Positions 1 to 55,611 of a stretch of DNA of 64,000 nucleotides are shown here, piece by piece. Position numbers and translations under genes: made by a program. The notes under the pieces were generated by a model. That model saw only the letters and a list, made by a program, of their open reading frames with translations, did not search any database and was not told the origin of the DNA. Source of the DNA: a virus; the IMG/VR virus record IMGVR_UViG_3300047445_000457, positions 6,227-70,226 of that record; one strand, 5' to 3'. Within the stretch, counting starts at the first letter, position 1; every line of letters begins with the position of its first letter.

Positions 1-3000
1 GCCGGACGCTGCCACGACCCCTGGAACAGGTCTTGGCCGAACGAACCCCAGCCGGTATAGCCGGCCAGCACTTCCTGTTCCTCGCGGGTCGGCGCGCGGC
101 CGGCGTCGAGCAACTGGTTGCGCATCTCGAGCGCGGCGCGGTTCTTGTCGAAGCGGACCTTCTGGCCGCCGCCGACGATTTTCAAGGGGTCGGCAATATG
201 GAAGTCACCCGGCCCGGTGTCCGCCGGGCTGACGCTCGCCGGGTTCTTTACGACAGGGGCGGCAGCGCGCGATCCTCCACGTCCTGCTCCGGTTCCAGCA
301 TCAGGATTTCGCGCTCCGCCATTTCGCGGGCGTCCGTCACCGGCATCCCCGCTTGCAGCAGTTCCTTCTGACGGGTCCACATGCGCTGCTGGAGCACGTA
401 CGCCAGTTGCTTCGTTATTTGCAGGCGTTGCAGGTCCGCCCACAGCTTCGGGCTGTCGCGCTCCCAGGTCGCCAGGATGTGCCGGTCCAGTTCCCGGTTG
501 TGCAGCGTCTCGTCGTTGTGGCGCAGCCGCAGGTACTCCTGCAGGATCTCCTTGCGCCATTCCTTGCTGGCTGTGTTCATCGGTCGTGGTTCCCTTGGGT
601 TTCTGTGCGTTATCGGGCGATGCTGCACTATTTTGAGCGTTCACGCCAGCGGCCTGCGCAACGGCAGCCCGTGCGCGGTCGGCCAGCTCGGATGCCGGCA
701 GGTTCACCGGCATCCAGCGGTTCTCGCCGCCGCTGAAACGCTGGCCCTCTTTCGTCACGCGCATCACGACACTGACGCCGGATTTGGTGGACTTGAGGAA
801 GCCCAGCGATTCGCCGCCAACAGTAATATAGATGCCGTGCTTCATGCCTGGGTGGAACATGGTCAGCATGGCATCGCCGGAACCGGCTGGGCCGCCTTCG
901 TTGACGCTGACGATCTTCGTCGGCTTGCCGTTGTGGTCCGTGTGCGGCACGAAGCCCTCGACGTCCAGCGCCTTGCCCACTGCTTTCAGGTAGGTGCTGG
1001 CGTCCTTGAGGAAAGCGTCCTTCATGCCCCCGCGCAGGCCGAAATCGGTCTGTTCGTTCTTGCCGCCGGGGATAGGCGTGTAGCCGTCGATGTACTCGAC
1101 GCCCCAATCGTCGCGCAGGACCGGATCGGTGCCGGACTTTGCTGGGCGCGGTGCGGTCGGCTGCGTCGGCTTTTCGTCCTTCGCGGCCGCCACTTGCGCA
1201 GTCTTCGCGGCAGCATCCTCGGTCGCCATCGCGGTCATCTTGTCCTTGGCCCAGGCGATCGCATCTTCCAGCGGCATCAGGCCGGTTTGCCCGAGTCCGC
1301 GCCCTTCGGCGCGCCACTGGTCGCCTTCGCGGGTCAGGATGACATTGGCATACTCGTAGTCGGGCAGCCTTACCTTGATGCTGCCGTCCTTCTCGTACAT
1401 CACCGCCAGGCCGGCGTCCTCGGCCAGCAGCCGTTGCCTGGACAGCGAGTTGACAATCACCTTCATGCCGGAAGGTGCGATATGCACGCTGGTTTCGCTG
1501 GCATCGCTTGCGGCTTTCGGCTCTGCCGCCTCTACCGCCGGCATTTTCATCCCGCGCCGCTGCATTTCCTTGGCGATCGGATCCGCGCGCTTCGGCAGTT
1601 CCTTATGCGCACGCAGCAGTTGCCCGTCCGTCATGGCCTTGACGGACAGATTGTTGAGTTCCTGGGTAGTCAGCTCGGCGCCGGTTTCCGCCGCCTTGAC
1701 GACCCCTTGCCCCAGCGTGATCTGGCGGCTGGCGTCAATACCGGGATAGTCGCGGGTGTCGATCCCGAGTGCCTGGCTGGCGCGGTCTTCCGATGCTTCG
1801 CGCTTTTTCGGGTCGGCGTTCTTGTGCTCACGCGCCTGCTGGTAGCGGCGTGCGGCGAGCGAATCGAGCACCTGGGCGATCTCGACCAGTGCGCGCTTCG
1901 CTTCCTGAACCGCTTTCGGGTAGCGTGAGTCGATCTGGTCCTCGTACCTGAACCCGAGTTGCGCCAGCGTCGGGGCCAGTTCGTTCCAGCGCTGCACCGC
2001 CGCGTCAATGATCGGCTGCGGCAGCACAGGGGCCACGTTGGTGATCCGCGGCATGTCGGCAGCCGTGATCGGCACAAAATCGACCGGCACGGCCGGCTTG
2101 CCCTCGCTCGCTCGCATGGCGATCGCCTGGCGCGCTTTGTCCTCGCGGAACGCCACGCCGGCCTCGTTCAGCCGGCCCTGGCCGGCGTCCATGTGTACGC
2201 CGGCCTCGATCACCCTGGCCATGTCGTCGTCGCCCGCGTCGCGCAGGTCACGCAGCATCTTCTCGATGCGTGGCGCGAACGGCGTCGACTGCCAGGCGCG
2301 CGCCGACGCTGCGGGTGCGGCCTCCGGCTCGTCTGCCGTCTCGCCCTTCTCTGCGGCCACCAGCTCGCGCAGCGCGTCATTCGCTGCGTCATCGTCCATA
2401 TCACCGTAGTAAGAATCCTCCACGGCGCTGTTGATGTCGCCTTCGGTCACGCCGGCCGCCACCGCCTGTTCGATCAGCTTGCGGTCGAGGCGGTCGTACT
2501 TGTTGGCGATCGCCATGGCCGGGTGATCGGCGGCGTTGTTGGCCATGAAGAAACCATAGCTGAAGCCTTCCGGCGTGACGGAACGGGCGTTCTTCGTCGC
2601 CTGGCTCTTGCCGCCGTACAGGCGGTGCATCTTGCTGCCCTCGGTCGGCTCGACCGGCGCCACCGGCAGGTCGCCGTTGAAGCGGCCCCAGATCAGGGTT
2701 TTCTTGGTGTACGGGTCGCCCAGGTGGTTCGGGTCGAACGACAGGCGCCACGGCGGCAGGCCACCCAGCTTCTCGATGCGGCCTACAGGGTTTTCCAGCG
2801 CCCAGACGGACGGCTTGAAGTATTCGATGGTGCGCAGGGTCTGGTGAACCAGGTTCACGCTGGCCACCGTGCGGCCGTCCGCGTCCTTGGCGGCGAAGTG
2901 GCGCGCGCCGGATACGGCGAAGTCAGTGCAGGGGCAGGCGGCCAGGATCGCGTACACGTCCATGCCGTCAAAGGAGCCGAACCAGTCGTTGAAGAACTCG

Positions 3001-6000
3001 GTCGAGAAGTTGTTGACGTCGCCCATTTCCGGGTCGTCCTGGATGTCGAAGCGGAATACCTGGTAGCCCGCTTCCTCCCACGGCTTCGACCACTCGCCCG
3101 ACAGGTCGAACAGCGACAGCACGACCTTCTGGCTGTTGGCGCGGCGCGTGGCGTCATCTTCATACTGAGCCAGCGCGTGTTCTTTCCACTGCTCGATTTT
3201 TGCCTTGGCCTCGGCCGGGGTCATCCAGCCATGCCCGGCATGGTAGACCTTTGCCTTGTCGGCCAGGCGGACGATCTCGCCATTCTTTGGCGGCTGGAAG
3301 ATGTTGGTAACGACGTGCTCGCCGTCCATCATTTCCGCTTGGGCGGCGTTGAACTCGTCCACGATCTCGCCCAGCTCGCGGTCATCCACCCCTTGCAGGT
3401 GTTCCGGCGCAGTCGCGTTCGGGTGTGCTTCCGGCTTCTCGGACGGCTCGGCCAGTGGCTTCCATTCGGTAAAACGATAGGTCGCCAGGCGCTCGGCGTT
3501 CTTGAGCGCTTCCAGCTTGTCCCAGCCGCCGGACGGCCCGGCACCGCCCTTGGTGTGGATGGTCTTGTCGCCGTCCTCCATCGACTTGACGACCCAGCCC
3601 TTGTCCGTCTTTTCGATCCACACCGTGCTGCCCGGTGCCCCGGCGTAGTCGAAGTGGGCGCGGTAGCCGGCATCGACGTCGCCAATGAATTCGTCCAGCG
3701 TGGTTGGCTCGCGCACTTCCAGCGGCTCGACCGTCTCCGCGGCGCGCGCACGCTTCTCCAGCGGACTCAGCGGCTCCACCGGATCCCGGCGCTGGTCGTC
3801 GCGCACCACGCGCGGCTGTGGCGAACCGTCTGCCATGTCCGACTGGATGATGTGCTTCATCGCCTGCGGGCGCGGGCGATCAGGCGTGATCAGCGCGCGC
3901 AGGCGGTTGGCGTCCGCCGATACGTTGCCGTCATAGTCGGCCGCCATCAAGGCGTCCAGGCGCGGCTGCAGGCGGGAGTCCGACACCGCGCCCAGGATAT
4001 GCACGGCATGGATGTTGTCGCCGTACTTCCGCATCAGGTCCGTGAGCTCGTCATTCGACACCGCCTCGGCCTGCGACGGGATGCCGATGATCGGAGAAAT
4101 GTCGCGCGCCGGGTCCATGCCCAGGTTGTGCATCATCTGCTCGTAAGCCTCGGTCAGCGACAGCTCACCACCTTGCAGCGGGATGATCGCCTGCAGGCCG
4201 TAGCCATTGATCGTCTCCGCATAGCGGGCGACCAGATCCAGCGAACCAGCCTGATCCCCCACGATGTCCGGCATGACGAAGAAGGCGCGACCGTTCGCCA
4301 TCCCGCCGCTGGCCTTGCTGATCGCGTGCGACAGGTCCTCGTAGCGCTGCATCAGTGCGTCGTGGTCCAGCTTTGCCGCCTCGGCCATTTCGCGCTGCTC
4401 GCGCTCCGCCACGCCCTGCTCCCGCACGTTGCGCATGAAGATCGAGAACGCGCCCGAATCAACGAACAGGTAGGCACCCGGCGCCGCTGCCAGCTGCTCG
4501 GCAATGCGCGGAACGGACACCTTCGACAGTTCCAGCATGGAAATGCCGACGTTCTTGCCGTTGCCGAACAGCTTGCTGTAGTCGCCCGGCGCACTCATGC
4601 CAGAGACGAACTTCAACGGTTGCTCCGGGGTGCCGTACACGCCCGGTTTGAACTGGCCGTTGGTGTCGACCGGGTTGCCGGCGTTGGCGTAGGTCTCCGC
4701 CAGCACACGGGCGCGCTCGCGCTCGTCCACGGCGGGCGGTTCCGGCGTCACCAGTTCGGAGGCCACCATGTCCGGCCCGCGCACGCGCGCATCTTCCTCA
4801 ACCAGCCGGTTGTAGCGGTCCTGATCCATCAGCACGACCTGCTCGGACAACATATCGGGGTTCCGAGTCATGCGGATCTTGTTCTTCCCGATGTCGATGC
4901 CATTGAGGCGGTAGAGCGTGCCATCTTCCGCGTGCAGGACGTCGCCAGTCGCGGCGGATTTCAGGCTGACTTTTGCAGGCGCATGCTTCGCCTTCGCCTC
5001 GCGGTACTGTTGCAAGGTGCGCTCGGCATCCGCAATCTTGTCGTCGTACACCCATGCGTTGGCGGTCGCCTTGGCCTGCTCTTGCAGCCGCTTCAATTCC
5101 GCGACCTTCGCCTCGCCTGCGGCGATGAGTTCGTCCAGTTTAGCGAGCGCGTCGGCGCTCGGTGCCGCCGGCGCGGCCACCAGGCGCAGCACCTGGTCGT
5201 CCGGCATCGCCGCCACCACTTCCTCGCTGTCGGTGCCTTCGTGGTCCTCGGCAATCGCGTTGTAGGCCGCTTTCCAGCGGCGCGCGCTGATCTGGTCCAC
5301 ATGCGGGGCCACAGCCGGGTTGCCGCGCATCGCCTTGGCCGAAGCGCCGACCGCGGCGGCGAACGTGCGGAATCCCTTGCGGACCAGCAGCTCGATCACC
5401 TTCGACAGCGCCGGCAGCAAATCGCCTGTGCCGTGCTGCTTGCCGGTCATGTTCAGCTTGGAACCGAACACGTCGCCCAGCACATCGCCCAAGTGCCCCA
5501 GCGCAGCCTGCAGCTCGGCGTCCAGCAGGTCGATGGCGGGTTCGTCCGGCTTATCCGGCGCCTGCTCGGCCGCTACTTCTGCCACGGTCGGCGGCGTCTC
5601 GCGCTTGCCGTCGATGAAGTCGTTGACCGCCTCGCTTTCCGAGCGCGGAATCGACGGATTGGGGGCGGGCTTCGTCCCGTCCTTGGTCGGGTTCAGCGCA
5701 TGGCGGATTTTCGCCAGCGCTCCCTTCTTGATGTCGAAGCGGTCGAGGGCGGCGAGCAAGGACTGGCGCAGCAGGTCCGCCGGCACGCGGGCGTTCTCGG
5801 CCCACTGCGCGACCGCCTGCGGCAGTTCCTTTGCGTCGAAGTCGGGCTCTCTCGTCTCTTCGGCCACCTGTCCGGCCATTTCGAGGCCGAGCGCCTCGGC
5901 CCGGTCTTCGATCAACTGCTCGGGAGTCTTGCCCTCGTTGCGCCAGGCTTCCGAGTTGCGCGAGGGTCGCGCCGGTTGCGCTTCGGCCGGCGACTCGGTT

Positions 6001-9000
6001 TTCGCCGTTGCCCCCTCCGCCGCCTCGGCGCTCGGGAACTCCGGCACCACCTTCAGCAGCTCGCGGATCGGCGCATCGAAGCGGATCACGCGCACCGGCT
6101 CGTCCTGCTCGTACTTGGCCAGCCACTGGTGATGGCCGTCGAGCACGTAGTCGTCGCTCGATACCAGGATCGCGCGGTCGCCGCCCTGGAAGTCCTTGGC
6201 CCGCTCGACCTTGGCGATGGAAAACTCGCGCTGGGTCGGCTTGAGCGTGTCCGGCTCCACGATGTCCTGTTCGTGCGCGATCCCGCGCCCCAGCAGGAAT
6301 TGCGTCAGTGCGCCGCGGTGCTCCGCCTTGATCTGCGGCATGTCGGCGCGTGGGATGCCCAGCGTGCCGGTCTCAGGCGCGAATGCGGTCCATTCCTTGT
6401 CGATCCGGTGGCCGGCGAGGTCGTTCACCGGCTCGGCCGCCTGGCGGCGCTTTGACGGCCCGGTGTAGTCGCGCACCTGGGCCGGCACGGTGGTATCGCC
6501 CAACTGGTTGAGCAGGAACGCGCGGTGGTGGCCGTCCTGCAAGTGCAGCGAGCCGTCCGGCAGTTCCTGGGCCTGGATCGGATGGGCGGCGGTGAAGGCG
6601 CGCAGGCGTGCTTGTGCCGCCGGGTCCGCCTTGATGGCGTCGACCAGTTCGCGCATCCCGGTGCCGGCCGGCAGATTCAGGCCCGCCGCGTGTTCGAGCA
6701 CGTCGCGGACCTGGCTTTCAGTCACGCCCTGCGTGCCGATCGCGCCGTTCGGGCGGCGGATCTCGGACAAAGCCAGGTCGATGGTGTCGGCCGGGTGCGG
6801 TGCGGTTTCGTGCGCCGCGTTCAGTGCAGCCTGTCCGGCCTCGGCATCCACTGCAGCCACAGCGCCCGCAGTACCGGGTTCGCCAGCGGCGACAGCGGCG
6901 CCGGGTTGCGCATCCTGCGCTCCAGCGGCGTGTCCGTGCCCACCTTCATCAGTTGCCGATACTGCATGATCTGCCCCCTCGGTAGCGCCGGGAACAGGCG
7001 CGACGGCTTTCCGCCCACCTTTTACGAATGCCTTGAACGCCTCCATCAGCGGCTTGCGCTGCCCGACCGGCACACCAGCCTTGTTCAGCGCCTTCCAGAA
7101 CTCGGTGCCGTCCTTCGCCTGCTGCGCCAGCGGCAGCAGTTCCGGCGGCAGCGCCGGCGCGGCGGCGGGCTGGCCCTTGGCCACGGGCGCGGCGGCGGGC
7201 TTGCGCTCGGGCACGGCGTCCACCAGCTCGTTCGGGGCGGCGTATTCAGCCTCGGGCACGGCAAAGGCGTGGGCCAGCGCGCTGTGCCGCTCGATGTGCC
7301 CGATTTCCTCCGGGGTCGGCGCCAGGTTCCGATACCCCTCGCGGCGCAGGCGGGCCGTGAACGCCGCCAGCTTCCTTTGCGGCGGGGCTTCGCCCAGCTC
7401 GTTCAGCACATGGTCGAGCAGGTCCATGCGCGCGTTGCGCGACTGCATCGCCTGGTGCGCCTCGACGCGGCCGTGGATGGCGTCGAGCTCAGCCTGGCGT
7501 TTCAGGTGTTGCATGCGCAGGTAGGCCTGCTGTTCGGCAGCGGCGGCTTGCTCCCGCTCGGCGGCGATGCGGGCGTCGTCCTCATGGATGCGGCGTTCCT
7601 CGGACGCCTCGATGGCAGGCTCCAGCAGGCGCAGCGCATCCTGTGGCGCGGCCTTGCGCGGCGCGAGCGCGGCTTTTTCCCTCTGCAACTGCTTGTATTC
7701 CGCTTCCTCGTCGGCGGTGTAGCGGCGCGCCGGGGCGTCCGGCCCGCCGCGCCCGATCGCGCGCAACTGCTCAAGGCGGGCGTCGATCTGGGCGATGCGT
7801 CCCTCCGCGGTCGGCGTTTCCGGCGGCGGGTCCTGCGCGGTCGCAGCGGCGTCAGTGGCCGCACCGGCAGGCGCAGCGCCGGCATCCGGCGCTGCCTGGT
7901 CGCCCGGCAGCGGCGTCGGCGGGGTCTTGTCGAAGCCGTTTGTGGCATCCACCTGGCGGCGCACCTCGGCTTGCTTTGCCGCACGCACGGCGGACGGGTC
8001 TTCGCTGCCGAATGCCGCCTCGGCATCGTCGCGGCGCTGCAGGCGCGCGGCGTCGGCCACGTTCGGGTCGAGTCCCGGCGACAGCGGCGGGGCAGCAGTC
8101 GCCGCCTGGCTGGTGGCGGCTGCGTGGTGCGCGCGTTCGAGCGGCCCGGCATCCGGCGACAGCGGCGGCGGCGCGGCAGGAGCGGCCGGCGCCGTAGCGG
8201 CGGGCTGGGTCGCCGGCTGATGCGTCGCCGCCGGCTGGTGATTACCATGGAACCCAGCCATGACCCCGCCCTGCACGCCGCCCACCACCATCCCGCTGCC
8301 GGCGGCGTTGCCGACCCCCTTCATGCGGTCCGGCTCGCCCTCGGCCACGTTGGTGAAATACTGTTCCTGGGCCGACTGCGGCGCTTCCTCCGCCACGCCT
8401 TCGCTGAAGGCTTCCTTGCCGATCTTGGCCAGCCGGCTGCCCTTCAAGGTATGCGCGCCGGTCGCCAGGTCGGTAGCGGCATCACCGAACACGCGGCCCG
8501 CTCCCAGCCCGATCCCGGCCGTGAGTGCGCCGGCGGTGAGCGCCGGCAGCGCGTAATCCGTGTAATCGCGCCCTTTACCTTGCGCCTGGTCCGCGATCTG
8601 GCCGGCGCTCTGCGCGCCCTCCATGCCCGAGCCGGTGGCCAGCAGGCGCGTCGAATTGGCCTCGACCGCGGCGTCAGCGGCGGCCTTGCCCGCCTTGGTC
8701 TTGAGCGCCGCCGCCGCCGCCTCGGCGCTGGACTTGCCGGCGTCGGTTGCGAGCTGCGCCGCCAGCTTGCCCTCGGTGGTGGCCAGCGCCGCCCTGACGC
8801 CGATGCGGGCGGCGAGCGCGTTGGTCACGCCCATGCCGGCCAACATCCCCGGCGCCGATTCGGCAATCCCGCCCAGGATCGCGCGCGGGTTCTCCAGCGA
8901 GGCAATGGTGCTGTCAACGAAGCCATCGGCCTGCTGGACTTTCGCATCCGCCGCCTTCTGGCTGTCGCTCAGGTACTCGCCCAGCGTTGCATTGGTGGCC

Positions 9001-9269
9001 TCGGGGTCGTAGCCGATCGCGCGCATACCCTTCCCCACCAGCCCGCCAGTCGCCAGGCTACCGAGGCCGACCACGGATTGCCCGAGGTCGACCGCGCCCT
9101 GCGCCAGCTTGATGCCGACGTCGCCCGCCGTCCGCAGGAAGCCCGCCTGTTCCGGCTCCTTGGCTTGCGCCTCCCCCATCTGGGAGTCGAGCCATGCCTG
9201 GCCGGCATCGAAATCGAGCGTGCTGCGGTTATCGGTCAGGTAGGGGGCTTGCGGTTTCTTGGTGGCCAT
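1..9269 (-). CDS. Giant polyvalent DarB-like virion-ejected protein (3' end beyond window, >=3089 aa)
   Basis: ATG at 9269 (MATKKPQAPY) just after the 746-aa gene. The ORF track lists no stop-terminated minus ORF in this frame, and I read 240-660 directly with no stop. Motifs: DGHHQW (6123-6140), FVDSGAFS (4443-4466), ACPCTDF/LENPVG (about 2781-2939), EEQEVLAGYTGWG (45-83). Confidence 0.88.
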   Translation of the reverse strand, partial: MATKKPQAPYLTDNRSTLDFDAGQAWLDSQMGEAQAKEPEQAGFLRTAGDVGIKLAQGAVDLGQSVVGLGSLATGGLVGKGMRAIGYDPEATNATLGEYLSDSQKAADAKVQQADGFVDSTIASLENPRAILGGIAESAPGMLAGMGVTNALAARIGVRAALATTEGKLAAQLATDAGKSSAEAAAAALKTKAGKAAADAAVEANSTRLLATGSGMEGAQSAGQIADQAQGKGRDYTDYALPALTAGALTAGIGLGAGRVFGDAATDLATGAHTLKGSRLAKIGKEAFSEGVAEEAPQSAQEQYFTNVAEGEPDRMKGVGNAAGSGMVVGGVQGGVMAGFHGNHQPAATHQPATQPAATAPAAPAAPPPLSPDAGPLERAHHAAATSQAATAAPPLSPGLDPNVADAARLQRRDDAEAAFGSEDPSAVRAAKQAEVRRQVDATNGFDKTPPTPLPGDQAAPDAGAAPAGAATDAAATAQDPPPETPTAEGRIAQIDARLEQLRAIGRGGPDAPARRYTADEEAEYKQLQREKAALAPRKAAPQDALRLLEPAIEASEERRIHEDDARIAAEREQAAAAEQQAYLRMQHLKRQAELDAIHGRVEAHQAMQSRNARMDLLDHVLNELGEAPPQRKLAAFTARLRREGYRNLAPTPEEIGHIERHSALAHAFAVPEAEYAAPNELVDAVPERKPAAAPVAKGQPAAAPALPPELLPLAQQAKDGTEFWKALNKAGVPVGQRKPLMEAFKAFVKGGRKAVAPVPGATEGADHAVSATDEGGHGHAAGAQDAQPGAAVAAGEPGTAGAVAAVDAEAGQAALNAAHETAPHPADTIDLALSEIRRPNGAIGTQGVTESQVRDVLEHAAGLNLPAGTGMRELVDAIKADPAAQARLRAFTAAHPIQAQELPDGSLHLQDGHHRAFLLNQLGDTTVPAQVRDYTGPSKRRQAAEPVNDLAGHRIDKEWTAFAPETGTLGIPRADMPQIKAEHRGALTQFLLGRGIAHEQDIVEPDTLKPTQREFSIAKVERAKDFQGGDRAILVSSDDYVLDGHHQWLAKYEQDEPVRVIRFDAPIRELLKVVPEFPSAEAAEGATAKTESPAEAQPARPSRNSEAWRNEGKTPEQLIEDRAEALGLEMAGQVAEETREPDFDAKELPQAVAQWAENARVPADLLRQSLLAALDRFDIKKGALAKIRHALNPTKDGTKPAPNPSIPRSESEAVNDFIDGKRETPPTVAEVAAEQAPDKPDEPAIDLLDAELQAALGHLGDVLGDVFGSKLNMTGKQHGTGDLLPALSKVIELLVRKGFRTFAAAVGASAKAMRGNPAVAPHVDQISARRWKAAYNAIAEDHEGTDSEEVVAAMPDDQVLRLVAAPAAPSADALAKLDELIAAGEAKVAELKRLQEQAKATANAWVYDDKIADAERTLQQYREAKAKHAPAKVSLKSAATGDVLHAEDGTLYRLNGIDIGKNKIRMTRNPDMLSEQVVLMDQDRYNRLVEEDARVRGPDMVASELVTPEPPAVDERERARVLAETYANAGNPVDTNGQFKPGVYGTPEQPLKFVSGMSAPGDYSKLFGNGKNVGISMLELSKVSVPRIAEQLAAAPGAYLFVDSGAFSIFMRNVREQGVAEREQREMAEAAKLDHDALMQRYEDLSHAISKASGGMANGRAFFVMPDIVGDQAGSLDLVARYAETINGYGLQAIIPLQGGELSLTEAYEQMMHNLGMDPARDISPIIGIPSQAEAVSNDELTDLMRKYGDNIHAVHILGAVSDSRLQPRLDALMAADYDGNVSADANRLRALITPDRPRPQAMKHIIQSDMADGSPQPRVVRDDQRRDPVEPLSPLEKRARAAETVEPLEVREPTTLDEFIGDVDAGYRAHFDYAGAPGSTVWIEKTDKGWVVKSMEDGDKTIHTKGGAGPSGGWDKLEALKNAERLATYRFTEWKPLAEPSEKPEAHPNATAPEHLQGVDDRELGEIVDEFNAAQAEMMDGEHVVTNIFQPPKNGEIVRLADKAKVYHAGHGWMTPAEAKAKIEQWKEHALAQYEDDATRRANSQKVVLSLFDLSGEWSKPWEEAGYQVFRFDIQDDPEMGDVNNFSTEFFNDWFGSFDGMDVYAILAACPCTDFAVSGARHFAAKDADGRTVASVNLVHQTLRTIEYFKPSVWALENPVGRIEKLGGLPPWRLSFDPNHLGDPYTKKTLIWGRFNGDLPVAPVEPTEGSKMHRLYGGKSQATKNARSVTPEGFSYGFFMANNAADHPAMAIANKYDRLDRKLIEQAVAAGVTEGDINSAVEDSYYGDMDDDAANDALRELVAAEKGETADEPEAAPAASARAWQSTPFAPRIEKMLRDLRDAGDDDMARVIEAGVHMDAGQGRLNEAGVAFREDKARQAIAMRASEGKPAVPVDFVPITAADMPRITNVAPVLPQPIIDAAVQRWNELAPTLAQLGFRYEDQIDSRYPKAVQEAKRALVEIAQVLDSLAARRYQQAREHKNADPKKREASEDRASQALGIDTRDYPGIDASRQITLGQGVVKAAETGAELTTQELNNLSVKAMTDGQLLRAHKELPKRADPIAKEMQRRGMKMPAVEAAEPKAASDASETSVHIAPSGMKVIVNSLSRQRLLAEDAGLAVMYEKDGSIKVRLPDYEYANVILTREGDQWRAEGRGLGQTGLMPLEDAIAWAKDKMTAMATEDAAAKTAQVAAAKDEKPTQPTAPRPAKSGTDPVLRDDWGVEYIDGYTPIPGGKNEQTDFGLRGGMKDAFLKDASTYLKAVGKALDVEGFVPHTDHNGKPTKIVSVNEGGPAGSGDAMLTMFHPGMKHGIYITVGGESLGFLKSTKSGVSVVMRVTKEGQRFSGGENRWMPVNLPASELADRARAAVAQAAGVNAQNSAASPDNAQKPKGTTTDEHSQQGMAQGDPAGVPAAAPQRRDAAQPGTGPAHPGDLGARQPEAVGGPATPANNEATGVRAPAAHVDPSEGTAASGDAGDGRPRNGGARNPDAGTGAGRGGSRAAAPVVKNPASVSPADTGPGDFHIADPLKIVGGGQKVRFDKNRAALEMRNQLLDAGRAPTREEQEVLAGYTGWGSFGQDLFQGSWQRP
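248..580 (-). CDS. Small helical protein (110 aa) nested out of frame inside the giant ORF
   Basis: MNTASKEWRKEIL...AREMAEREILMLEPE; AAGGGA SD 10 nt upstream; GC3 bias switches to this frame. Confidence 0.7.
   Translation of the reverse strand: MNTASKEWRKEILQEYLRLRHNDETLHNRELDRHILATWERDSPKLWADLQRLQITKQLAYVLQQRMWTRQKELLQAGMPVTDAREMAEREILMLEPEQDVEDRALPPLS
6821..6967 (-). CDS. Possible second nested small ORF (48 aa) in the giant ORF
   Basis: GAGGGGG SD-like element then ATG (MQYRQLMKVG); same alternative frame as 248-580; lies in a linker. Confidence 0.25.
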   Translation of the reverse strand: MQYRQLMKVGTDTPLERRMRNPAPLSPLANPVLRALWLQWMPRPDRLH

Positions 9270-9287
9270 GTTGGTCCTTGTCGTGGG

Positions 9288-11528
9288 TCAGAGCGGCATG
9301 CTGGCGGACTCGCCAGCGTTGGCGGCTTGCTCTTTCGCCTTGGCGTACAGTCGTGCGGCGGCCTTGCGGATGGCCGGGTTCGGGTTGGTCTTGGCGATTT
9401 CCTGGTACTTGGCCGGACCGTCCAGCGGGCCGATCAGCTTTTCCTGTACCCAGGTTTCCAGGGCGGCGTCCGTCATGCCGGTTGCGGCCGGCGCTGCAGC
9501 GCGCGGGGGCGTCTGTGCCGCATTCTTTTGCGGCGCAGGACCCGTGCCGCCTTTCCCCTGGTGCGGGGTGGATCTGGCCGCCACCGTCTTGTACGCCGCC
9601 TGCACCTTGGCGGCGTAGTCCGGGTCCTCGGCGTAGCCGCCCGTCTTCAACGCTGCGCCGAACCTGGCTGCGTCCGCACCTGCGCCGACTGCGCCGGGGT
9701 ACTTGCGGCGGATCAGGTCAACATACTGGTCCGCGAACTCATCGGGGCTGGCGAAGGCGCGGTACTTGTCCACGCTGCCGGTCTGGTTGTCGGTCGCCTC
9801 GACGCCCTCGCCGGAGAAGTCCTTGATGTTGCCGAGGTTATTCGTGCCGGGGACGATGGATTGGCCCCAGCCGGTTTCCAGACCCCAATGCCCCAGCACT
9901 ACGCTCGGGTCGACCCCGAGCGCTTCGCCAGCGCGCTTGGCGGCGGCACCGTAGCTGTTGGCATAGTCCGCTTGCTGCGCGTTCGGCTGGGCATCGCCCT
10001 GCTGCGGCGTGGCGCGGATCGCATGTTTCAGGTACTCGGCGCGCAGGCGGCGCAGCTCGGCCACCGGGTCCAGCATCTTCGGGTCGTTGGCCGCTTTCGG
10101 GTCCTTGGCGGCTTTGGCGACGTTAGCGGTGGCCAGCGCCTTGAGCTGGTTGTTCACGCCCACCGCCACCCCGGCGCCGCTCATGGCGTCGCCGCCGTGC
10201 TGGCGGGCGTAGTCGATGCCGACCGTCTTGGCGAAGGTGAAGCCGTCGCCGTCGTAGACTTCGTTGCCGTCCTGGTCCTTGGCCTTGGTCGTGGCCACCA
10301 GGTAGGCGTCGGCCTCCTTGGTCCAGTTCGCGGCCTGCTCGGCGCTCTGGGCCTGCTTTACCTTGAGCGCCTCTTCCTGCAGGCGGCGCTGCTCGCGCAT
10401 GTTCTTGGCCTGGTCCTCGCGGTAGCCGGCATTCGTGTCGGCGTTCTTCCTCGCCGCTTCCACCATGCCGGTCTTGTAGTCCGTTTCGCTCTTGCGCTGG
10501 GCCGCCTTATCCATCACCTCGAGGCGATCTTTCAGTGCCATCGTCTGGAACTGGTTGAGCGAGGTGTCGATGTCGGTGCGGCTGCCGTCATTGTTGGCAA
10601 TTTGCAGCTTCCAGGTCGGCACTTCCATACCGTTCGGCAGCGTGGTCGTGGCCTGCTGGGGCGTGCCGACGATGCGCCCGCGATTCTCTCCGAGGCCGTT
10701 GTACAGGGCCATGCCGCCCGCGAAATCGCCATGCGCAAACGCCTCCATGGCCTGCGTCACGCCCTCGGTGCGCATCTTGTTCAGCAGCTCGCGGGTCTGC
10801 ACGTAGGCCTGCGGATTGACGTCGCCGCGCTTGGCAGCGGAGTTCAGCATGGTCTCGTACATGCCCAGCATGCTGCGCATGTCGCGCGGCTTGGGGATGC
10901 CGGCCGGCTGCTGCACCAGTGGGGCGACGTCGCCGGATGCGGGTGCGGTTGGTGCCACCTGTGCGATTGGTGCCGCCTGCGCAATCGGTGCTGCCGGTGC
11001 CGCCTGTGCAATCGGTGCTGCCGGTGCGGCTGGCGCAGCCGTCATGTCCGGTGCGATCGCGCGCTGCGGCGGCGGGCCTTCCAGTCCATCGACCAGCGGC
11101 GTCGCCAGCTTGCTTGCGGTTGCCATCGGGGCCGGGGTAATGTCCGCTGCCGGATCGGCCACCGGCAAGGTCTGCGGACCGCCATCATCCGGCGCAGTGC
11201 CGCCTGCCGCCGGGGCGGAGGGCATTGCCGGGGCGGGCGCCGCTGCGGCACTCGGCGCAGCCGGCGTGCCGGCGGTCGGTGCGGTGGCGCCGCTTGCGGG
11301 CGGATCCTGCCAGTAGTCGGCGGCGGTCTTCTTATTAGCGTCGCGCACGCGGTCGGCCTCGCTCCACTCGTAGCGCTGGCGCGAACGCAGTTCGTCCTGG
11401 TAGGCGCGGTCGGCCTTCTTCGCCTCATCCTCCACGCGGCGGCGCTCGGTGTCTTCCTGGCGGCGCTGCTCGTCGCGGTAAGCGTTGTAGCCGGCGGCGG
11501 CGCCGGTCAAGTTGATTCCAAAACCCAT
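9288..11528 (-). CDS. Ejection/internal virion protein with C-terminal GH73 (FlgJ-like) peptidoglycan hydrolase domain
   Basis: GHWGLETGWG, NNLGNIK and GGYAEDPDYAAKV motifs; Pro/Ala linker; located among ejection genes. Confidence 0.85.
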   Translation of the reverse strand: MGFGINLTGAAAGYNAYRDEQRRQEDTERRRVEDEAKKADRAYQDELRSRQRYEWSEADRVRDANKKTAADYWQDPPASGATAPTAGTPAAPSAAAAPAPAMPSAPAAGGTAPDDGGPQTLPVADPAADITPAPMATASKLATPLVDGLEGPPPQRAIAPDMTAAPAAPAAPIAQAAPAAPIAQAAPIAQVAPTAPASGDVAPLVQQPAGIPKPRDMRSMLGMYETMLNSAAKRGDVNPQAYVQTRELLNKMRTEGVTQAMEAFAHGDFAGGMALYNGLGENRGRIVGTPQQATTTLPNGMEVPTWKLQIANNDGSRTDIDTSLNQFQTMALKDRLEVMDKAAQRKSETDYKTGMVEAARKNADTNAGYREDQAKNMREQRRLQEEALKVKQAQSAEQAANWTKEADAYLVATTKAKDQDGNEVYDGDGFTFAKTVGIDYARQHGGDAMSGAGVAVGVNNQLKALATANVAKAAKDPKAANDPKMLDPVAELRRLRAEYLKHAIRATPQQGDAQPNAQQADYANSYGAAAKRAGEALGVDPSVVLGHWGLETGWGQSIVPGTNNLGNIKDFSGEGVEATDNQTGSVDKYRAFASPDEFADQYVDLIRRKYPGAVGAGADAARFGAALKTGGYAEDPDYAAKVQAAYKTVAARSTPHQGKGGTGPAPQKNAAQTPPRAAAPAATGMTDAALETWVQEKLIGPLDGPAKYQEIAKTNPNPAIRKAAARLYAKAKEQAANAGESASMPL

Positions 11529-11537
11529 GTTGCGCTC

Positions 11538-11795
11538 CTACTCCCCGGCTGGGGTGGTTGGGACTTCGAGGCGGGGCGACACCATGAACCTCACGGACTC
11601 GATGCGGCCGATCTCCATGGTCAACAGGCGCGCGCCCCGGTAGGCATCGGCGCGGCGCTCAAAGCGCTCGCGGCTGCGGTCAAGCAGGTGTTGCCCCTGC
11701 GCCGACAGGCGATCCAGCGTGCCGCCCTTCAAGGCACGATTCGGCATGCACCACAGGCGCATGAAACCTGCGCTTCCCGGCATGGCGGGGTCCAT
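11538..11795 (-). CDS. Hypothetical protein
   Basis: 85-aa ORF filling the gap, translationally coupled to the upstream gene. Confidence 0.5.
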   Translation of the reverse strand: MDPAMPGSAGFMRLWCMPNRALKGGTLDRLSAQGQHLLDRSRERFERRADAYRGARLLTMEIGRIESVRFMVSPRLEVPTTPAGE

Positions 11796-12508
11796 CAGGT
11801 GCCGATGCTCTCGCCGCTCGGCAGCGTATAACCGTCATTGCCACCGCTATACATATTCGCGTCGGTCATGCCGTTGCCGGACGAGGACGTGAACTTGCTC
11901 CAGTCGACCTTCGACAGTCCGCCGATCGCCGCGCCGGCGAGCTGGCCGGCCGCCGCGCCCTGCGCATTGGCCTGCTGCTGCTGGCTGTTCGCCACCGCAT
12001 TCGCGGTGCTGGCCGCGTTGGCGAAGCCGGTCGAGGCGTTGGCCACCAGCCCCTTGCCCATGCCGAGCATGTCGAGCTGGTGGGCGTAGGCGCTGTCCTT
12101 GACCTGTTTTCTCGCCGTGTTCTGCGCGGTCGCGCCCATCGCGGCGCCGGACAGGGCCAGGTTCGTTTGCGCCGCCTGCGCGGCAGCCGACGACGGATCG
12201 AAACCGACCTGGCGCGACAGACGATCCTGCGCCTTGCCGATCTCGCTCGAGACGTTGGCCTGCGCCTCCGCGGCGGCGGCATTGCGCGCCTCGGGGGTGT
12301 CGTAGTTCTTGGCGTCCATCACCATCTGCGTTTCGAGCGGCTGGTAGTTGGCCTTGTAGCTGTCCCACTGGTCCTGCGCGATCCGGCCCTGGTAGGCGTT
12401 GGCTTCAAGCGCCGCCTTCTGGGACTCGGCGGCGTTTTTCGACGCCTTGTTCGACGCGACCCCACCGACCACCGCCGAAGTAACTGCTGCTGCTGCTGCC
12501 CATGGCAT
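11795..12508 (-). CDS. DNA ejection/pilot-type protein
   Basis: Gly/Ala-rich hydrophobic N-terminus (MPWAAAAAVTSAVVGGVAS), Ala/Gln-rich helices; position typical of podovirus ejection proteins. Confidence 0.65.
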   Translation of the reverse strand: MPWAAAAAVTSAVVGGVASNKASKNAAESQKAALEANAYQGRIAQDQWDSYKANYQPLETQMVMDAKNYDTPEARNAAAAEAQANVSSEIGKAQDRLSRQVGFDPSSAAAQAAQTNLALSGAAMGATAQNTARKQVKDSAYAHQLDMLGMGKGLVANASTGFANAASTANAVANSQQQQANAQGAAAGQLAGAAIGGLSKVDWSKFTSSSGNGMTDANMYSGGNDGYTLPSGESIGT

Positions 12509-12509
12509 A

Positions 12510-12818
12510 TCAGCTCTCCTTAATGAGTTCGTGGTCGATCTTGTCCGGGTCCGTCTCGCCGGTTGCGTGTATGCAGAACCAGACGATGCCGGTGACGGCC
12601 TCGATGTGGTGGACGGCGCCGGCGCGGATCGCCAGGCATTCCGGGCCGATGTGCTGCGTGGTTTCGCCGTCGACGGTGACGCGGGCGATGCCGCTGGCCA
12701 GGATGCTCAGGTGATCGAAGTTGTGGCGGTGCGTGTCGGCCTGGTGCCCGGCGGGCAAGACCATCTTGCGGGCATACTCGCGCCCGGAAAAATAGTGTTC
12801 AATCTGCAGGTCAAGCAT
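12510..12818 (-). CDS. Cupin-domain protein (102 aa)
   Basis: HRHNFDHLSILASG and AGAVHHIEA cupin motifs. Confidence 0.8.
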   Translation of the reverse strand: MLDLQIEHYFSGREYARKMVLPAGHQADTHRHNFDHLSILASGIARVTVDGETTQHIGPECLAIRAGAVHHIEAVTGIVWFCIHATGETDPDKIDHELIKES

Positions 12819-15094: not shown

Positions 15095-15674
15095 ATCCTG
15101 CCACCGGCACCACCAGCATCCCCCACAGCCCCAGCGCATAGCTGCCGCCCATGTCGTTACCCATGTGCAGCGTCAGCGCATAGGTCCCGGCCTCGAGGCG
15201 GAAGCCGTTTGAGGCCACATGCGTGCGGGTGTAGCCGCCGCGCGTGGTGTCACTCTGGGACAGCAGCACGACCCCGCTGCCGTTGTGGATCTCGGCACGG
15301 GTGCCGCCCGTCCTGATGCCGCTGGAGGTCCAGTTCACCGTCGCCTGAAAGCTGGTCGCGCGGTCGAGCACCAGGTTGATGGTGGCGAGCGGGCCGGACA
15401 GCGTGCCAAGCCCGAACGTGCCGCCGCCGGACCCTTTCACGTAGCGGGCGAGCATCCGCGGCGCGGCGCCCTGCTCGCCCACCGCACCCAGGCGCACGAC
15501 TTCGAGCGCCTGGCGCGTGGTGATGAAGGCGTCGTCGCCGCTGCCCGCCAGGTTGTTGCGGACGTTGTGGGTATCCACCAGCGCGCGCAGCACGTCGCGC
15601 ACCTTGCCGTCCCCGATCGCGGCGAGTGACGCGAGCGGGATACCCGGAATGACTTTGCCGGCCTGGTCGGTCAT
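15093..15674 (-). CDS. Tail-associated protein
   Basis: Coupled to the 691-aa gene; its C-terminal beta-rich domain resembles a segment of that protein. Confidence 0.65.
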   Translation of the reverse strand: MTDQAGKVIPGIPLASLAAIGDGKVRDVLRALVDTHNVRNNLAGSGDDAFITTRQALEVVRLGAVGEQGAAPRMLARYVKGSGGGTFGLGTLSGPLATINLVLDRATSFQATVNWTSSGIRTGGTRAEIHNGSGVVLLSQSDTTRGGYTRTHVASNGFRLEAGTYALTLHMGNDMGGSYALGLWGMLVVPVAG

Positions 15675-54503: not shown

Positions 54504-54519
54504 TTGCTAAAAACGACAC
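54391..54519 (+). repeat. Iteron array, consensus CTAAAAACGACAC
   Basis: Units at 54391, about 54412, 54444, 54465, 54486, 54507; inverted copy at 54779-54791. Confidence 0.85.
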
Positions 54520-55009: not shown

Positions 55010-55037
55010 ATTTGACATAATGTAAGTTATGCGCGGT
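55010..55037 (-). other. XerC/XerD dif-like recombination site
   Basis: Minus strand ACCGCGCATAA-CTTACA-TTATGTCAAAT versus E. coli dif GGTGCGCATAA-TGTATA-TTATGTTAAAT. Confidence 0.85.
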
Positions 55038-55173
55038 CTCTGAACCTTGCTTTTCGGAAGCATGTTGTACAAATGTTTTTTTAACTTGTGCTATTGCTAA
55101 ATCGCAAAAGTGACTGCTAGAATCACATTTGTGGGGATGAAGACCAACCGAATCAATATCACAGGAAACGCAG

Positions 55174-55581: not shown

Positions 55582-55611
55582 CACCATTACCCAGATCGAC
55601 CTGGTGCAGGC

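What the first reader, a model, noticed from the sequence alone, without database searches (positions are those of the whole stretch)
3870..4620. TGT/DpdA-like base-exchange domain inside the ejected giant protein
Seen, in order: YLFVDSGAFS (about 4443-4472), VMPDIVGD (4254-4277), IIPLQGG, IIGIP, VHILG, VSADA. Known: tRNA-guanine transglycosylases and the DNA 7-deazaguanine inserter DpdA share DSGxF, PxxQG, HxLG and SxD motifs, and phage DpdA is usually a stand-alone gene, often near folE/queCDE. No que genes are in this window. Inference: a co-injected transglycosylase could use host preQ0/preQ1 to modify DNA at entry. I do not know of this domain being characterised in a DarB-type protein. 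This is my top candidate for an undescribed system.
Basis: partly seen in the sequence, partly recalled or inferred. Interest (0 to 1): 0.88.

Follow-up and report, generated by a model that had tools for sequence, protein, structure and literature searches.

The report
DpdA-like base-swapping domain in giant phage protein
A giant multi-enzyme phage protein, probably injected with the DNA, contains an intact but uncatalogued relative of the DpdA enzymes that swap guanine in DNA for a 7-deazaguanine, so it probably helps shield incoming DNA from host restriction, though no activity has been tested.

Summary
They lie in one minus-strand ORF of at least 5,165 residues, which also carries a C5 methylase and a DarB-like methylase/helicase part.

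Residues about 1551-1814 fold as a confident (beta/alpha)8 barrel. The best structural matches are archaeosine TGT, Cap10 and DpdA, but only narrowly above unrelated barrels. Sequence profiles decide it: 96.8% probability, E 3e-10, against phage DpdA, with controls and decoys at 6.4% or less. The three catalytic aspartates are kept in 125-126 of 126 relatives.

The domain belongs to a large family (432 clusters) that Pfam, NCBIfam and PADLOC do not hold. It occurs mostly inside giant polyvalent proteins and also alone.

New here: one stand-alone member ends a complete QueD-QueC-FolE-QueE operon. The other 158 of 159 loci, and this phage, have no such genes, so any 7-deazaguanine must come from the host.

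It is not a member of TGT proper or bacterial DpdA, because it has no zinc site. It is best read as a further DpdA subfamily.

Activity, substrate and timing (entry or packaging) are untested. The scan noted this family before on other DNA.

The parts
3..9269 (-). Window part (3,089 aa) of a giant polyvalent protein; the gene runs on beyond the window to at least 5,165 aa and is still open at the contig end
3828..4619 (-). DpdA-like (TGT-superfamily) TIM-barrel domain, aa about 1551-1814 of the giant protein
   Evidence: AlphaFold2 model pLDDT 88.6, pTM 0.86, eight beta-alpha units; hhalign 96.8%, E 3e-10 against a phage DpdA profile; fold matches
4458..4460 (-). Asp1604 (DSGAF), aligned with the general acid/base Asp of DpdA and TGT
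   Evidence: 126 of 126 family segments; role taken from PMC10164549 section 30
4266..4268 (-). Asp1668 (PDIVGD), aligned with the base-binding Asp of DpdA
   Evidence: 126 of 126
4173..4175 (-). Gln1699 (PLQGG), aligned with His of phage 9g DpdA; TGT has Gln in the matching IIQG motif
   Evidence: Q in 112 and H in 5 of 126
3999..4001 (-). His1757 of HILG, aligned with HGFG of phage 9g DpdA
   Evidence: 126 of 126
3912..3914 (-). Asp1786 (SADAN) on strand beta-8, candidate nucleophile; it pairs with the Asp of the S-x-D-S-S motif of phage DpdA only in the relaxed alignment
   Evidence: 125 of 126
6465..6614 (-). Weak ParB-like nuclease match (aa 885-935, DGHHR motif)
   Evidence: Pfam ParBc_2 E 0.17 in the whole protein and 2.1e-4 in a 267-aa piece, below the curated cut-off
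5916..6443 (-). Domain of unknown function, aa 943-1118 (DGHHQW motif)
   Evidence: phrog_11358 E 1.3e-36 and phrog_2859 E 1.1e-22, both of unknown function
2502..3149 (-). C5 cytosine DNA methyltransferase domain, aa 2041-2256
   Evidence: phrog_757 E 1.4e-41; Pfam DNA_methylase E 0.0018, below the cut-off
18..1199 (-). Start of the DarB-like antirestriction part (aa 2691-3084); the methylase and SNF2/helicase part follows outside the window
   Evidence: phrog_10089 E 2.4e-28 in the window part and E 0 (1,824 bits) in the off-window part; Helicase_C, SNF2-rel_dom, ResIII
7527..8960 (-). N-terminal region (aa 104-581) resembling the N-terminal part of a PHROG family annotated virion RNA polymerase
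   Evidence: phrog_2206 E 5.5e-7
9288..11528 (-). Upstream neighbour, 746 aa with an endolysin-type domain
   Evidence: phrog_3513 E 3.4e-34
11795..12508 (-). Virion structural / DNA-ejection protein
   Evidence: phrog_8003 E 1.8e-23, phrog_21132 E 6e-10
15674..17749 (-). Internal virion protein
   Evidence: phrog_511 E 6.1e-103

Best explanation
Residues about 1551-1814 of the giant protein are a self-contained, catalytically intact nucleobase-exchange (transglycosylase) module of the TGT superfamily. Its nearest characterised relatives are the phage DpdA1 enzymes. By analogy with DpdA, a guanine is flipped into the barrel pocket. Asp1786 then attacks C1' and expels guanine with help from Asp1604. 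[quoted passage not shown] The phage has no preQ0 genes, so that base would be preQ0 or preQ1 made by the host. The module is one of several DNA-marking units (C5 methylase, DarB-like N6 methylase plus SNF2 helicase) strung on a protein encoded among virion and ejection genes. Its likely job is therefore to make the element's own DNA refractory to restriction. Shown here: the fold, the homology to DpdA, conservation of the active site, the polyvalent DarB-like carrier, and one family member in a preQ0 operon. Inferred: base exchange itself, DNA as the substrate, the identity of the base, delivery into the cell, and timing (at entry or in the producing cell before packaging).
For: Fold: confident (beta/alpha)8 model, pLDDT 88.6. 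In a search of 48,161 chains that does not rely on Foldseek, TGT-superfamily chains take ranks 1, 3, 4 and 7: arcTGT Z 14.2, Cap10 13.4, DpdA 7ui4 13.3, TGT 12.5.

Sequence: phrog_887 (queuine tRNA-ribosyltransferase, the phage DpdA family) is hit by 20 of 41 family members at E<=0.1, best 2.5e-7. A 126-sequence family profile against a 29-sequence phage DpdA profile gives 96.8%, E 3e-10 over 144 columns from DSGAF to HxLG.

Controls with the same profile: FbaA 0.2%, Endo IV 3.6%, E. coli Tgt 6.4%, reversed DpdA sequences 0.2% or less, reversed DpdA profile 1.8%. Single DpdA sequences score 76-93% for 5 of 9.

Active site: the three aspartates are kept in 126, 126 and 125 of 126 segments. They lie at or just after the ends of strands beta-3, beta-4 and beta-8 of the model. 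They align with the residues whose roles are given for S. Montevideo DpdA (PMC10164549 section 30).

Context: in L079 a 261-aa stand-alone member follows QueD, QueC, FolE and a QueE-like radical-SAM gene with overlapping ends. It scores E 5.9e-55 with the family HMM and only 0.012 with the DpdA1 HMM.

Precedent: 9g DpdA alone puts host preQ0 into plasmid DNA in E. coli, and 76 phages encode DpdA without preQ0 genes (PMC6884629, passages).

Carrier: phrog_10089 'DarB-like antirestriction' E 0. Neighbours are ejection and internal virion proteins. Of 19 other carriers, 6 have LPD1, 4 ART-PolyVal and 4 LPD38.
Against: Structure alone does not single out TGT. A class II aldolase scores Z 13.5, 489 chains score Z>=8, and Foldseek's first hit is a D-psicose epimerase.

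P0003 itself matches phrog_887 only at E 0.011. It does not match Pfam TGT, Pfam DpdA, NCBIfam or PADLOC models. A family profile finds no TGT or DpdA among PDB sequences.

The nucleophile Asp pairs with the DpdA Asp only in a relaxed alignment, with no confidence values.

The large Ins8 DNA-binding insertion and the zinc site of bacterial DpdA and TGT are absent: 0 of 126 segments have CxCxxC and the window's domain has no Cys.

preQ0 genes accompany the family in only 1 of 159 loci and QueC in 1 of 78 viral records, against 8 of 9 phages with canonical DpdA. The substrate may therefore differ.

The L079 member is distant (25% identity, long branch, other half of the tree).

Bacterial DpdA needs the ParB-like ATPase DpdB. 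A ParB-like segment accompanies the domain in only 6-7 of 74 giant carriers.

I estimate that a few injected copies could hardly modify a 70-kb genome quickly; no call tested this.
Confidence: 0.55

Rival explanations
1. Same fold and catalytic apparatus but different chemistry on DNA. One version is exchange of guanine for a base that is not a queuosine-pathway 7-deazaguanine. Another is a one-way glycosylase that removes a base, for instance a host mark such as dPreQ0/dADG, or damages host DNA, without putting one back.
For: 158 of 159 family loci, and this phage, have no preQ0 genes within reach. The family has its own invariant residues (Tyr109, Pro133, Gln139, Pro197 in P0003 numbering). 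I did not check whether DpdA or TGT share these residues. It lacks the Ins8 surface that bacterial DpdA uses to hold DNA. No conserved partner gene was found next to 75 stand-alone members; the largest neighbour cluster is in 5 loci.
Against: The L079 member sits at the end of a full preQ0 operon. DpdA-only phages are the largest published group and 9g DpdA works on host preQ0. The base-binding Asp and Gln/His positions are those of DpdA and TGT.
Confidence: 0.2
2. The domain acts on RNA, like TGT itself. Once injected, it would swap the wobble base of host tRNAs to bias translation.
For: Archaeosine and bacterial tRNA transglycosylases are among the best fold matches. Polyvalent proteins also carry RNA-directed domains (PMC5512222, passages).
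Against: The family profile is specific for DpdA (96.8%) and barely sees E. coli Tgt (6.4%, only the DSGGF stretch). The tRNA-binding insertions and zinc subdomain are absent. The nearest partner domains are DNA enzymes: a C5 methylase within about 650 aa in 15 of 74 carriers, and in this protein a DarB-like module further on.
Confidence: 0.07
3. The domain handles a nucleobase-protein link, like Cap10 of type IV CBASS, which attaches a deazaguanine to the cyclase. A phage version could undo or mimic that mark as a counter-defence.
For: The Cap10-CdnD structure 9ntn is a top fold match, Z 13.4-13.6 with 227-228 residues aligned, and it is of similar size.
Against: No PADLOC model is matched by any of 41 members beyond two stray ATPase hits. 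Whether PADLOC holds a Cap10 model is my recollection; no call checked it. Its Z equals that of DpdA and an aldolase, so it has no discriminating value. Sequence profiles point to DpdA.
Confidence: 0.04
4. It is an unrelated TIM-barrel enzyme (sugar isomerase/epimerase, aldolase or Endo IV-like), and the motif likeness to TGT is convergent.
For: D-psicose epimerases head the Foldseek list (E 6.8e-6). Class II aldolases score Z 12.5-13.5.
Against: The profile comparison gives 0.2% for FbaA and 3.6% for Endo IV, against 96.8% for DpdA. 20 of 41 members hit phrog_887. One member lies in a preQ0 operon.
Confidence: 0.03
5. It is a decayed, catalytically dead module kept as a spacer or DNA-binding unit.
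For: Polyvalent proteins shuffle domains freely: the tree needs at least 11-14 switches between embedded and stand-alone forms.
Against: Every catalytic position is present here and is kept in 125-126 of 126 relatives at 25-95% identity.
Confidence: 0.02

Closest known systems
Phage DpdA1 (Enterobacteria phage 9g gp03 and relatives; PHROG phrog_887)
   Same: Compact barrel of about 250-320 aa without the CxCxxC zinc motif (0 of 9 fetched DpdA, 0 of 126 family segments). DSGAFS, D-x-I/V-G-D, H-x-x-G and S-x-D motifs come in the same order. It is the best profile match of all families tested.
   Different: Only about 20% identity over the aligned part. The family has its own signature (SG-S on beta-1, PDVVGDQ, PLQ-G, G-PS, S-DAN-LR) and Gln where 9g has His. 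It is mostly embedded in giant polyvalent proteins. QueC occurs in 1 of 78 carrying records against 8 of 9 DpdA phages. No GenBank phage record matched three family queries.
Bacterial DpdA of the Dpd restriction-modification system (S. Montevideo, PDB 7ui4; PMC10164549)
   Same: TIM barrel, Z 13.3, rmsd 4.6 over 228 residues. Same order of general acid/base Asp plus Phe, base-binding Asp, and nucleophile Asp.
   Different: No Ins8 insertion (30% of DpdA) and no CXCX2CX22H zinc site. No match to Pfam DpdA PF23859. No obligatory ParB-like DpdB partner.
tRNA-guanine transglycosylases (bacterial Tgt, archaeosine TGT; Pfam PF01702)
   Same: Best fold match overall: 1iq8 Z 14.2, rmsd 3.6, 225 residues. 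Shared DSG-x-F, Q-G, L/M-G and D motifs.
   Different: No PF01702 match. Profile against E. coli Tgt gives only 6.4% over 23 columns. No zinc subdomain and no tRNA-binding insertions.
P1 DarB / Bcep22-type giant 'DarB-like antirestriction' proteins; polyvalent proteins of Iyer et al. 2017 (PMC5512222)
   Same: The carrier protein matches phrog_10089 at E 0, with the methylase-helicase dyad. Other carriers have LPD1, ART-PolyVal, LPD38 and InPase.
   Different: The match to the phrog_10089 profile does not cover the DpdA-like stretch. The 2017 catalogue text does not mention TGT, queuine, deazaguanine or a barrel. Its supplementary domain tables could not be opened.
Cap10 of type IV CBASS (PDB 9ntn)
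   Same: Small TGT-like barrel, Z 13.4-13.6.
   Different: No sequence-level link was found. Cap10 acts on a protein, in a defence operon.

Membership tests
TGT superfamily (fold and catalytic core) | (beta/alpha)8 barrel with the active site at the C-terminal face | tested here: met
   Model with eight strand-helix units, pLDDT 88.6. arcTGT Z 14.2, DpdA 13.3, TGT 12.5. The margin over unrelated barrels is small (aldolase 13.5).
TGT superfamily (fold and catalytic core) | General acid/base Asp in D-S-G-x-F/Y with the gating aromatic four residues on | tested here: met
   DSGAF aligns with DSGAF of 9g DpdA and DSGGF of E. coli Tgt. D in 126 of 126; F in 114 and Y in 10 of 126.
TGT superfamily (fold and catalytic core) | Second Asp that binds the base edge | tested here: met
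   PDIVGD aligns with LDGIGD of 9g DpdA inside the confident part of the alignment. 126 of 126.
TGT superfamily (fold and catalytic core) | Nucleophile Asp on the last barrel strand | tested here: inconclusive
   An Asp kept in 125 of 126 lies in strand beta-8. It pairs with the Asp of the S-x-D-S-S motif of phage DpdA only at relaxed alignment settings, without confidence values. No coordinates were available to measure geometry.
TGT proper (Pfam PF01702) and bacterial DpdA (Pfam PF23859) | Match to the curated family model | tested here: not met
   No PF01702 hit for the domain, the whole protein or the record. No PF23859 hit at E<=10. PF23859 also misses 4 of 4 records of known phage DpdA, and 120 of 120 listed 9g-DpdA relatives carry no Pfam domain. 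These models therefore say little about phage types.
TGT proper and bacterial DpdA | Structural zinc site (CxCxxC...H) pinning the Ins8 subdomain | tested here: not met
   0 Cys in the window's domain. 0 of 126 family segments have CxCxxC. E. coli Tgt has CDCYTC. The site is described as conserved in the DpdA family in PMC10164549.
Phage DpdA1 (phrog_887) | Significant match to the family profile | tested here: inconclusive
   The window's domain scores E 0.011 over 34 residues. 20 of 41 family members match at E<=0.1, best 2.5e-7. Profile-profile gives 96.8%. This is homology, not clear membership: the family HMM and the DpdA1 HMM separate the two sets by tens of orders of magnitude.
Phage DpdA (any subfamily) | Encoded beside 7-deazaguanine synthesis genes, or in a host that supplies them | tested here: inconclusive
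   None in this record. One of 159 family loci has the full operon. The host is unknown. DpdA-only phages are an accepted group (PMC6884629).
Phage DpdA (any subfamily) | Guanine / 7-deazaguanine exchange in DNA | not testable with these tools
   Needs LC-MS/MS of DNA or a radiolabelled guanine exchange assay.
DpdA4 / DUF6610 (PF20314) | Match to PF20314 | tested here: not met
   Only 1 of 10 stand-alone members gave a hit, at E 0.16. None for the window's domain.
DarB-like polyvalent virion protein | Methylase-SF2 helicase dyad and match to DarB-like family | tested here: met
   phrog_10089 E 0; phrog_11801 DNA methyltransferase E 5.4e-170; Helicase_C E 3.6e-12; SNF2-rel_dom E 8.3e-6.
DarB-like polyvalent virion protein | Packaged in the virion and ejected with the DNA | not testable with these tools
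   Inferred only from neighbours (ejection protein, internal virion protein) and from an N-terminal likeness to a virion RNA polymerase family.

The most novel reading that the evidence does not exclude
Write-on-entry base swapping. The giant protein enters with the DNA, and its SNF2/helicase part threads the genome past three writers in one polypeptide: the C5 methylase, the N6 methylase and the DpdA-like transglycosylase. Guanines at chosen sites would then be exchanged for host-made preQ0 or preQ1, or for a base not yet known in DNA, before restriction enzymes can act. That would be a sixth DpdA subfamily, and the first base-exchange enzyme delivered as a virion or conjugation cargo. The family is spread over hundreds of uncultured phages and at least 43 sequenced plasmids.
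Probability: 0.25. Interest if true: 0.85.

Novelty: new variant of a known kind. Interest (0 to 1): 0.62.

Why it matters
7-Deazaguanine DNA modification is so far tied to separately encoded DpdA enzymes that act after replication, usually beside the genes that make the base. Five subfamilies are described: bDpdA and DpdA1-4 (abstract and passages of the bioRxiv copy of Cui et al. 2023).

A further large subfamily built into injected or transferred polyvalent proteins, and almost never accompanied by preQ0 genes, would have three consequences.
- Many phages and plasmids would parasitise the host's queuosine pathway to disguise their DNA.
- The list of activities carried by DarB-type anti-restriction proteins would grow.
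- Host queC/queD status would become a possible determinant of phage and plasmid entry.

The family is in no curated protein library tested here, so it is invisible to routine annotation. Members on plasmids of cultured Pseudomonas and Cupriavidus make the question directly testable.

Tried and rejected
Single-sequence and profile-to-sequence searches gave nothing useful.
- Pfam and NCBIfam on the domain found nothing.
- phmmer and a family profile against PDB sequences returned only stray low-complexity matches.
- PADLOC on 41 members found nothing relevant.
- Pfam on 10 stand-alone members found nothing.
- Pfam DpdA PF23859 and Beta_protein PF14350, both suggested by the protein atlas, did not match the record. 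The atlas rows are leads only: recognition was 1819, below the 2300 that most proteins of known families reach.

The ParB/DpdB idea is not supported as a general rule. Bacterial DpdA needs a ParB-like ATPase, and 4 of 8 fetched phage DpdA loci have a ParB-like neighbour. This protein has ParB-like motifs upstream. However, iterative searches with the two segments found them in only 1 and 6 of 74 giant carriers, and Pfam saw no ParB family in 19 carriers at E<=0.001.

The search for a conserved partner of stand-alone members found none. I clustered 502 neighbouring ORFs of 75 loci, and the largest cluster covers 5 loci.

No cultured phage carrying the domain was found. tblastn with three family queries against 50,697 GenBank phage records gave no match, and records near my window may be hidden from that search. 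Nucleotide searches show only short patches shared with Bcep22 and Pseudomonas phages.

The host was not identified: there is no tRNA in the window and no host genome is held.

I did not use the sequencing-run tools, complex prediction or a second fold.

The LPD tables of PMC5512222 and the alignments and Data S1 of the DpdA papers might already list this domain, so my statement that it is not in print rests on main texts and on searches only.
Full report
WHAT IS THERE

The window is bases 6227-70226 of a 70,226-base viral record classed as a provirus and estimated 85% complete. A single minus-strand frame is open from the ATG at 9269 to the window edge, 3,089 residues. In the record it continues to at least 5,165 residues and is still open at the contig end. 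The long plus-strand ORFs over it are antisense shadows in 65-71% G+C DNA. All six strings named in the finding lie in this frame at the stated coordinates.

THE CARRIER PROTEIN

The part beyond the window matches the PHROG family 'DarB-like antirestriction' (phrog_10089, E 0, 1,824 bits). It also matches a DNA methyltransferase family (E 5.4e-170), Helicase_C, SNF2-related and ResIII.

Inside the window there are three further features:
- a C5 cytosine methylase domain at aa 2041-2256 (phrog_757, E 1.4e-41);
- a domain of unknown function at aa 943-1118;
- a weak ParB-like match at aa 885-935.

Residues 104-581 resemble the N-terminal part of a virion RNA polymerase family (E 5.5e-7).

The genes just upstream on the same strand encode an endolysin-domain protein, a DNA-ejection/virion protein and an internal virion protein. 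Major head and portal/adaptor genes lie further on. So 'DarB-type giant protein in a virion module' holds. That it is packaged and ejected is inference.

THE DOMAIN

I cut out aa 1535-1830 (P0003). It has no match in Pfam or NCBIfam.

A search of 1.84 billion representative proteins found 432 clusters at E<=1e-3, of which 143 are at E<=1e-10. Of the 150 listed, 74 are 1,000 aa or longer, 54 are 2,000 aa or longer, and 59 are 500 aa or shorter. It is therefore a discrete mobile module.

With 40 stand-alone relatives as the alignment, AlphaFold2 gives a confident eight-fold beta/alpha barrel: pLDDT 88.6, pTM 0.86.

FOLD COMPARISON

Foldseek against the PDB ranks D-psicose epimerases and Z. mobilis TGT together, at E about 1e-5 and TM about 0.5.

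The aligner that scans 48,161 representative chains without Foldseek puts these at the top:
- archaeosine TGT first (Z 14.2, rmsd 3.6, 225 residues);
- a class II aldolase (13.5);
- Cap10 of type IV CBASS (13.4);
- the DNA preQ0 insertase DpdA 7ui4 (13.3, rmsd 4.6, 228 residues);
- two more aldolases;
- bacterial TGT (12.5).

In that search 489 chains reach Z>=8. TGT-superfamily chains take four of the top seven places, but the margin is about one Z unit. The fold fits the reading and does not prove it.

Among predicted viral structures the best hit is a polyvalent protein carrying the same module (E 1.5e-14). Seven of the 50 listed rows are annotated queuine/tRNA-guanine transglycosylases, at E 4e-4 to 1e-2.

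SEQUENCE EVIDENCE

This is what decides the matter. Scanning the 41 aligned members one by one against PHROGs, 20 hit phrog_887, the phage 'queuine tRNA-ribosyltransferase' (DpdA) family, at E<=0.1 with a best of 2.5e-7. Another 21 hit phrog_15826, of unknown function. The window's own domain reaches only E 0.011.

I fetched phage 9g DpdA and eight diverse phage DpdA genes, plus 20 of the 120 listed 9g relatives. I then compared profiles:
- 126-sequence family profile against this 29-sequence DpdA profile: 96.8% probability, E 3e-10, over 144 columns running from DSGAF to HxLG;
- hhalign through the tool, with the smaller alignment and 9g alone: 82.6%, E 9.6e-6.

Controls with the same family profile:
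- E. coli class II aldolase 0.2%;
- Endo IV 3.6%;
- E. coli Tgt 6.4%, and only the DSGGF stretch;
- three reversed DpdA sequences 0.2% or less;
- the reversed DpdA profile 1.8%.

Five of nine single DpdA sequences score 76-93%. The other four score 6-44%.

ACTIVE SITE

For S. Montevideo DpdA the paper assigns these roles (PMC10164549, section 30, read in full):
- Asp95 as general acid/base, with Phe99 as gate;
- Asp130 and His181 on the base edge;
- Asp256 as nucleophile.

Alanine mutants of the two catalytic aspartates are dead.

In the confident part of the alignment the correspondences are as follows:
- Asp1604-x3-Phe (DSGAF) pairs with DSGAF of 9g DpdA;
- Asp1668 (PDIVGD) pairs with LDGIGD;
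- Gln1699 pairs with the His of 9g (TGT has Gln there);
- His1757-x-Leu-Gly pairs with HGFG.

Asp1786 (SADAN) pairs with the S-x-D-S-S Asp of phage DpdA only when the alignment is relaxed, and without confidence values.

In 126 family segments the three aspartates are kept in 126, 126 and 125, the His in 126, and Gln in 112 with His in 5 more. In the model they sit at or just after the ends of strands 3, 4, 5, 7 and 8. The module is under selection as an enzyme.

WHAT IT LACKS

Bacterial DpdA and TGT have a large insertion after strand 8, pinned by a CxCxxC...H zinc site. The window's domain has no cysteine, and 0 of 126 family segments have CxCxxC. None of the nine phage DpdA sequences has it either. 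This excludes membership of TGT proper and of bacterial DpdA, but not kinship with phage DpdA.

The Pfam models for TGT and DpdA do not match. The Pfam DpdA model also misses all four known phage DpdA records tried.

WHERE THE BASE WOULD COME FROM

The record has no QueC, QueD, FolE, radical-SAM or YhhQ-type gene.

I fetched 79 viral loci carrying the family and searched their 78 records for QueC:
- 1 of 78 has it over the cut-off, plus two sub-threshold hits;
- none of the 40 records rated at least 90% complete has it;
- 8 of 9 control phages with canonical DpdA have it.

With 80 further metagenome loci, a local scan for QueC, QueD, FolE and QueE within the fetched flanks found them in 1 of 159 loci.

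That one locus is informative. In L079 a 261-aa stand-alone member directly follows QueD, QueC, GTP cyclohydrolase I and a QueE-like radical-SAM gene, with overlapping ends, and an Eco57I-type methylase lies downstream. The member scores E 5.9e-55 with the family HMM and only 0.012 with the DpdA1 HMM. This is the classic setting of a DNA 7-deazaguanine transglycosylase, and it ties this family, not just DpdA1, to preQ0.

The caveat is that it is a single case, on a long branch, in the half of the tree that is rich in stand-alone forms, and at 25% identity to the window's domain.

The published precedent for the other 158 loci is real. The largest group in Hutinet et al. 2019 (76 phages) encodes DpdA with no synthesis genes, and 9g DpdA alone inserts host preQ0 into plasmids in E. 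coli (passages).

ARCHITECTURE AND SPREAD

Embedded and stand-alone forms are interleaved in the tree. Well-supported branches force at least 11-14 switches.

Of 19 giant carriers scanned with Pfam, 6 have LPD1, 4 ART-PolyVal, 4 LPD38, 3 InPase and 3 a C5 methylase. These are polyvalent proteins in the sense of Iyer et al. 2017.

A C5 methylase like the one here occurs in 15 of 74 giant carriers, within about 650 residues of the domain on either side in every case. ParB-like segments occur in 1 and 6 of 74.

No GenBank phage record matched three family queries. By contrast, 43 plasmid records did: Pseudomonas 29, Shewanella 5, Cupriavidus 4, with 16 predicted conjugative. Two examples:
- a 261-aa gene on the P. 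aeruginosa plasmid pHN39-SIM, downstream of a cytosine methylase;
- a 2,206-aa 'LPD1 domain-containing protein' on Cupriavidus plasmid pMTS3, near traW.

Both carry all five motifs.

READING

Homology to DpdA and an intact catalytic core are well supported. I put about 0.55 on the specific function: exchange of guanine in the element's own DNA for a host-made 7-deazaguanine, as an anti-restriction measure.

Timing is open. The architecture (helicase plus three DNA writers on a virion protein) invites action at entry. Canonical DpdA enzymes, however, act after replication, and I judge that a few injected copies may be too slow.

The main rival (0.2) keeps the chemistry but changes the base, or makes it a one-way glycosylase. 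It rests on the near-absence of preQ0 genes and on the missing DNA-binding insertion.

PRIOR WORK

The main text of the polyvalent-protein paper has no mention of TGT, queuine, deazaguanine or a barrel. Searches for DpdA with 'polyvalent', and for DarB with transglycosylase or deazaguanine, found nothing on this. I read listings, and passages of PMC12839542.

Five DpdA subfamilies are described (abstract and passages). Supplements were closed.

The scan itself has noted the same family in other giant proteins on other DNA, with the same reading. Those are unchecked AI notes. I re-derived the conclusion on this window and added the controls, the que-gene census, the L079 operon and the plasmid members.

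Noticed in passing
L079:7838-10771: In an uncultured viral contig, QueD, QueC, FolE and a QueE-like radical-SAM gene are followed by a stand-alone member of this uncatalogued family, not a DpdA1. An Eco57I-type methylase lies at 11644-12516. It is the only such case among 159 family loci.
   Followed up: yes
L174:7019-7804 and L175:6757-13377: Family members sit on plasmids of cultured bacteria. One is a 261-aa hypothetical protein on P. aeruginosa plasmid pHN39-SIM, 2.5 kb downstream of a cytosine methylase. The other is inside a 2,206-aa LPD1 protein on Cupriavidus plasmid pMTS3, near traW. In all, 43 plasmid records match.
   Followed up: partly
phage collection: Three family queries found no match in 50,697 GenBank phage records, although the family is common in uncultured viral contigs. 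Records close to the window may be hidden from that search.
   Followed up: partly
L005, L006, L007, L010: Four of eight fetched canonical phage DpdA genes have a ParB-like nuclease-domain gene beside them. This recalls the DpdA-DpdB pair of the bacterial system.
   Followed up: partly
window 32160-34247 (-): A separate 695-aa DNA methyltransferase (phrog_116, E 4.9e-83). About 33454-34164 is 76.8% identical in DNA to the Bcep22 DNA methylase gene, one of the few stretches shared with any cultured phage.
   Followed up: no
window 54001-56000: G+C falls to 0.52 against about 0.65 elsewhere. This may be foreign DNA or an element boundary.
   Followed up: no
window 7527-8960 (-): The N-terminal part of the giant protein (aa 104-581) resembles the N-terminal region of a PHROG family annotated as virion RNA polymerase (E 5.5e-7). 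It may be a shared packaging or ejection module.
   Followed up: no
window 5916-6443 (-): Domain with a DGHHQW motif. It matches two PHROG families of unknown function (E 1.3e-36 and 1.1e-22) and recurs upstream of the DpdA-like domain in 6 of 74 giant carriers.
   Followed up: partly
window 1959-6455 and 6525-11831 (+): ORFs of 1,498 and 1,768 codons on the plus strand are antisense shadows of the giant gene in high-G+C DNA, not genes.
   Followed up: partly
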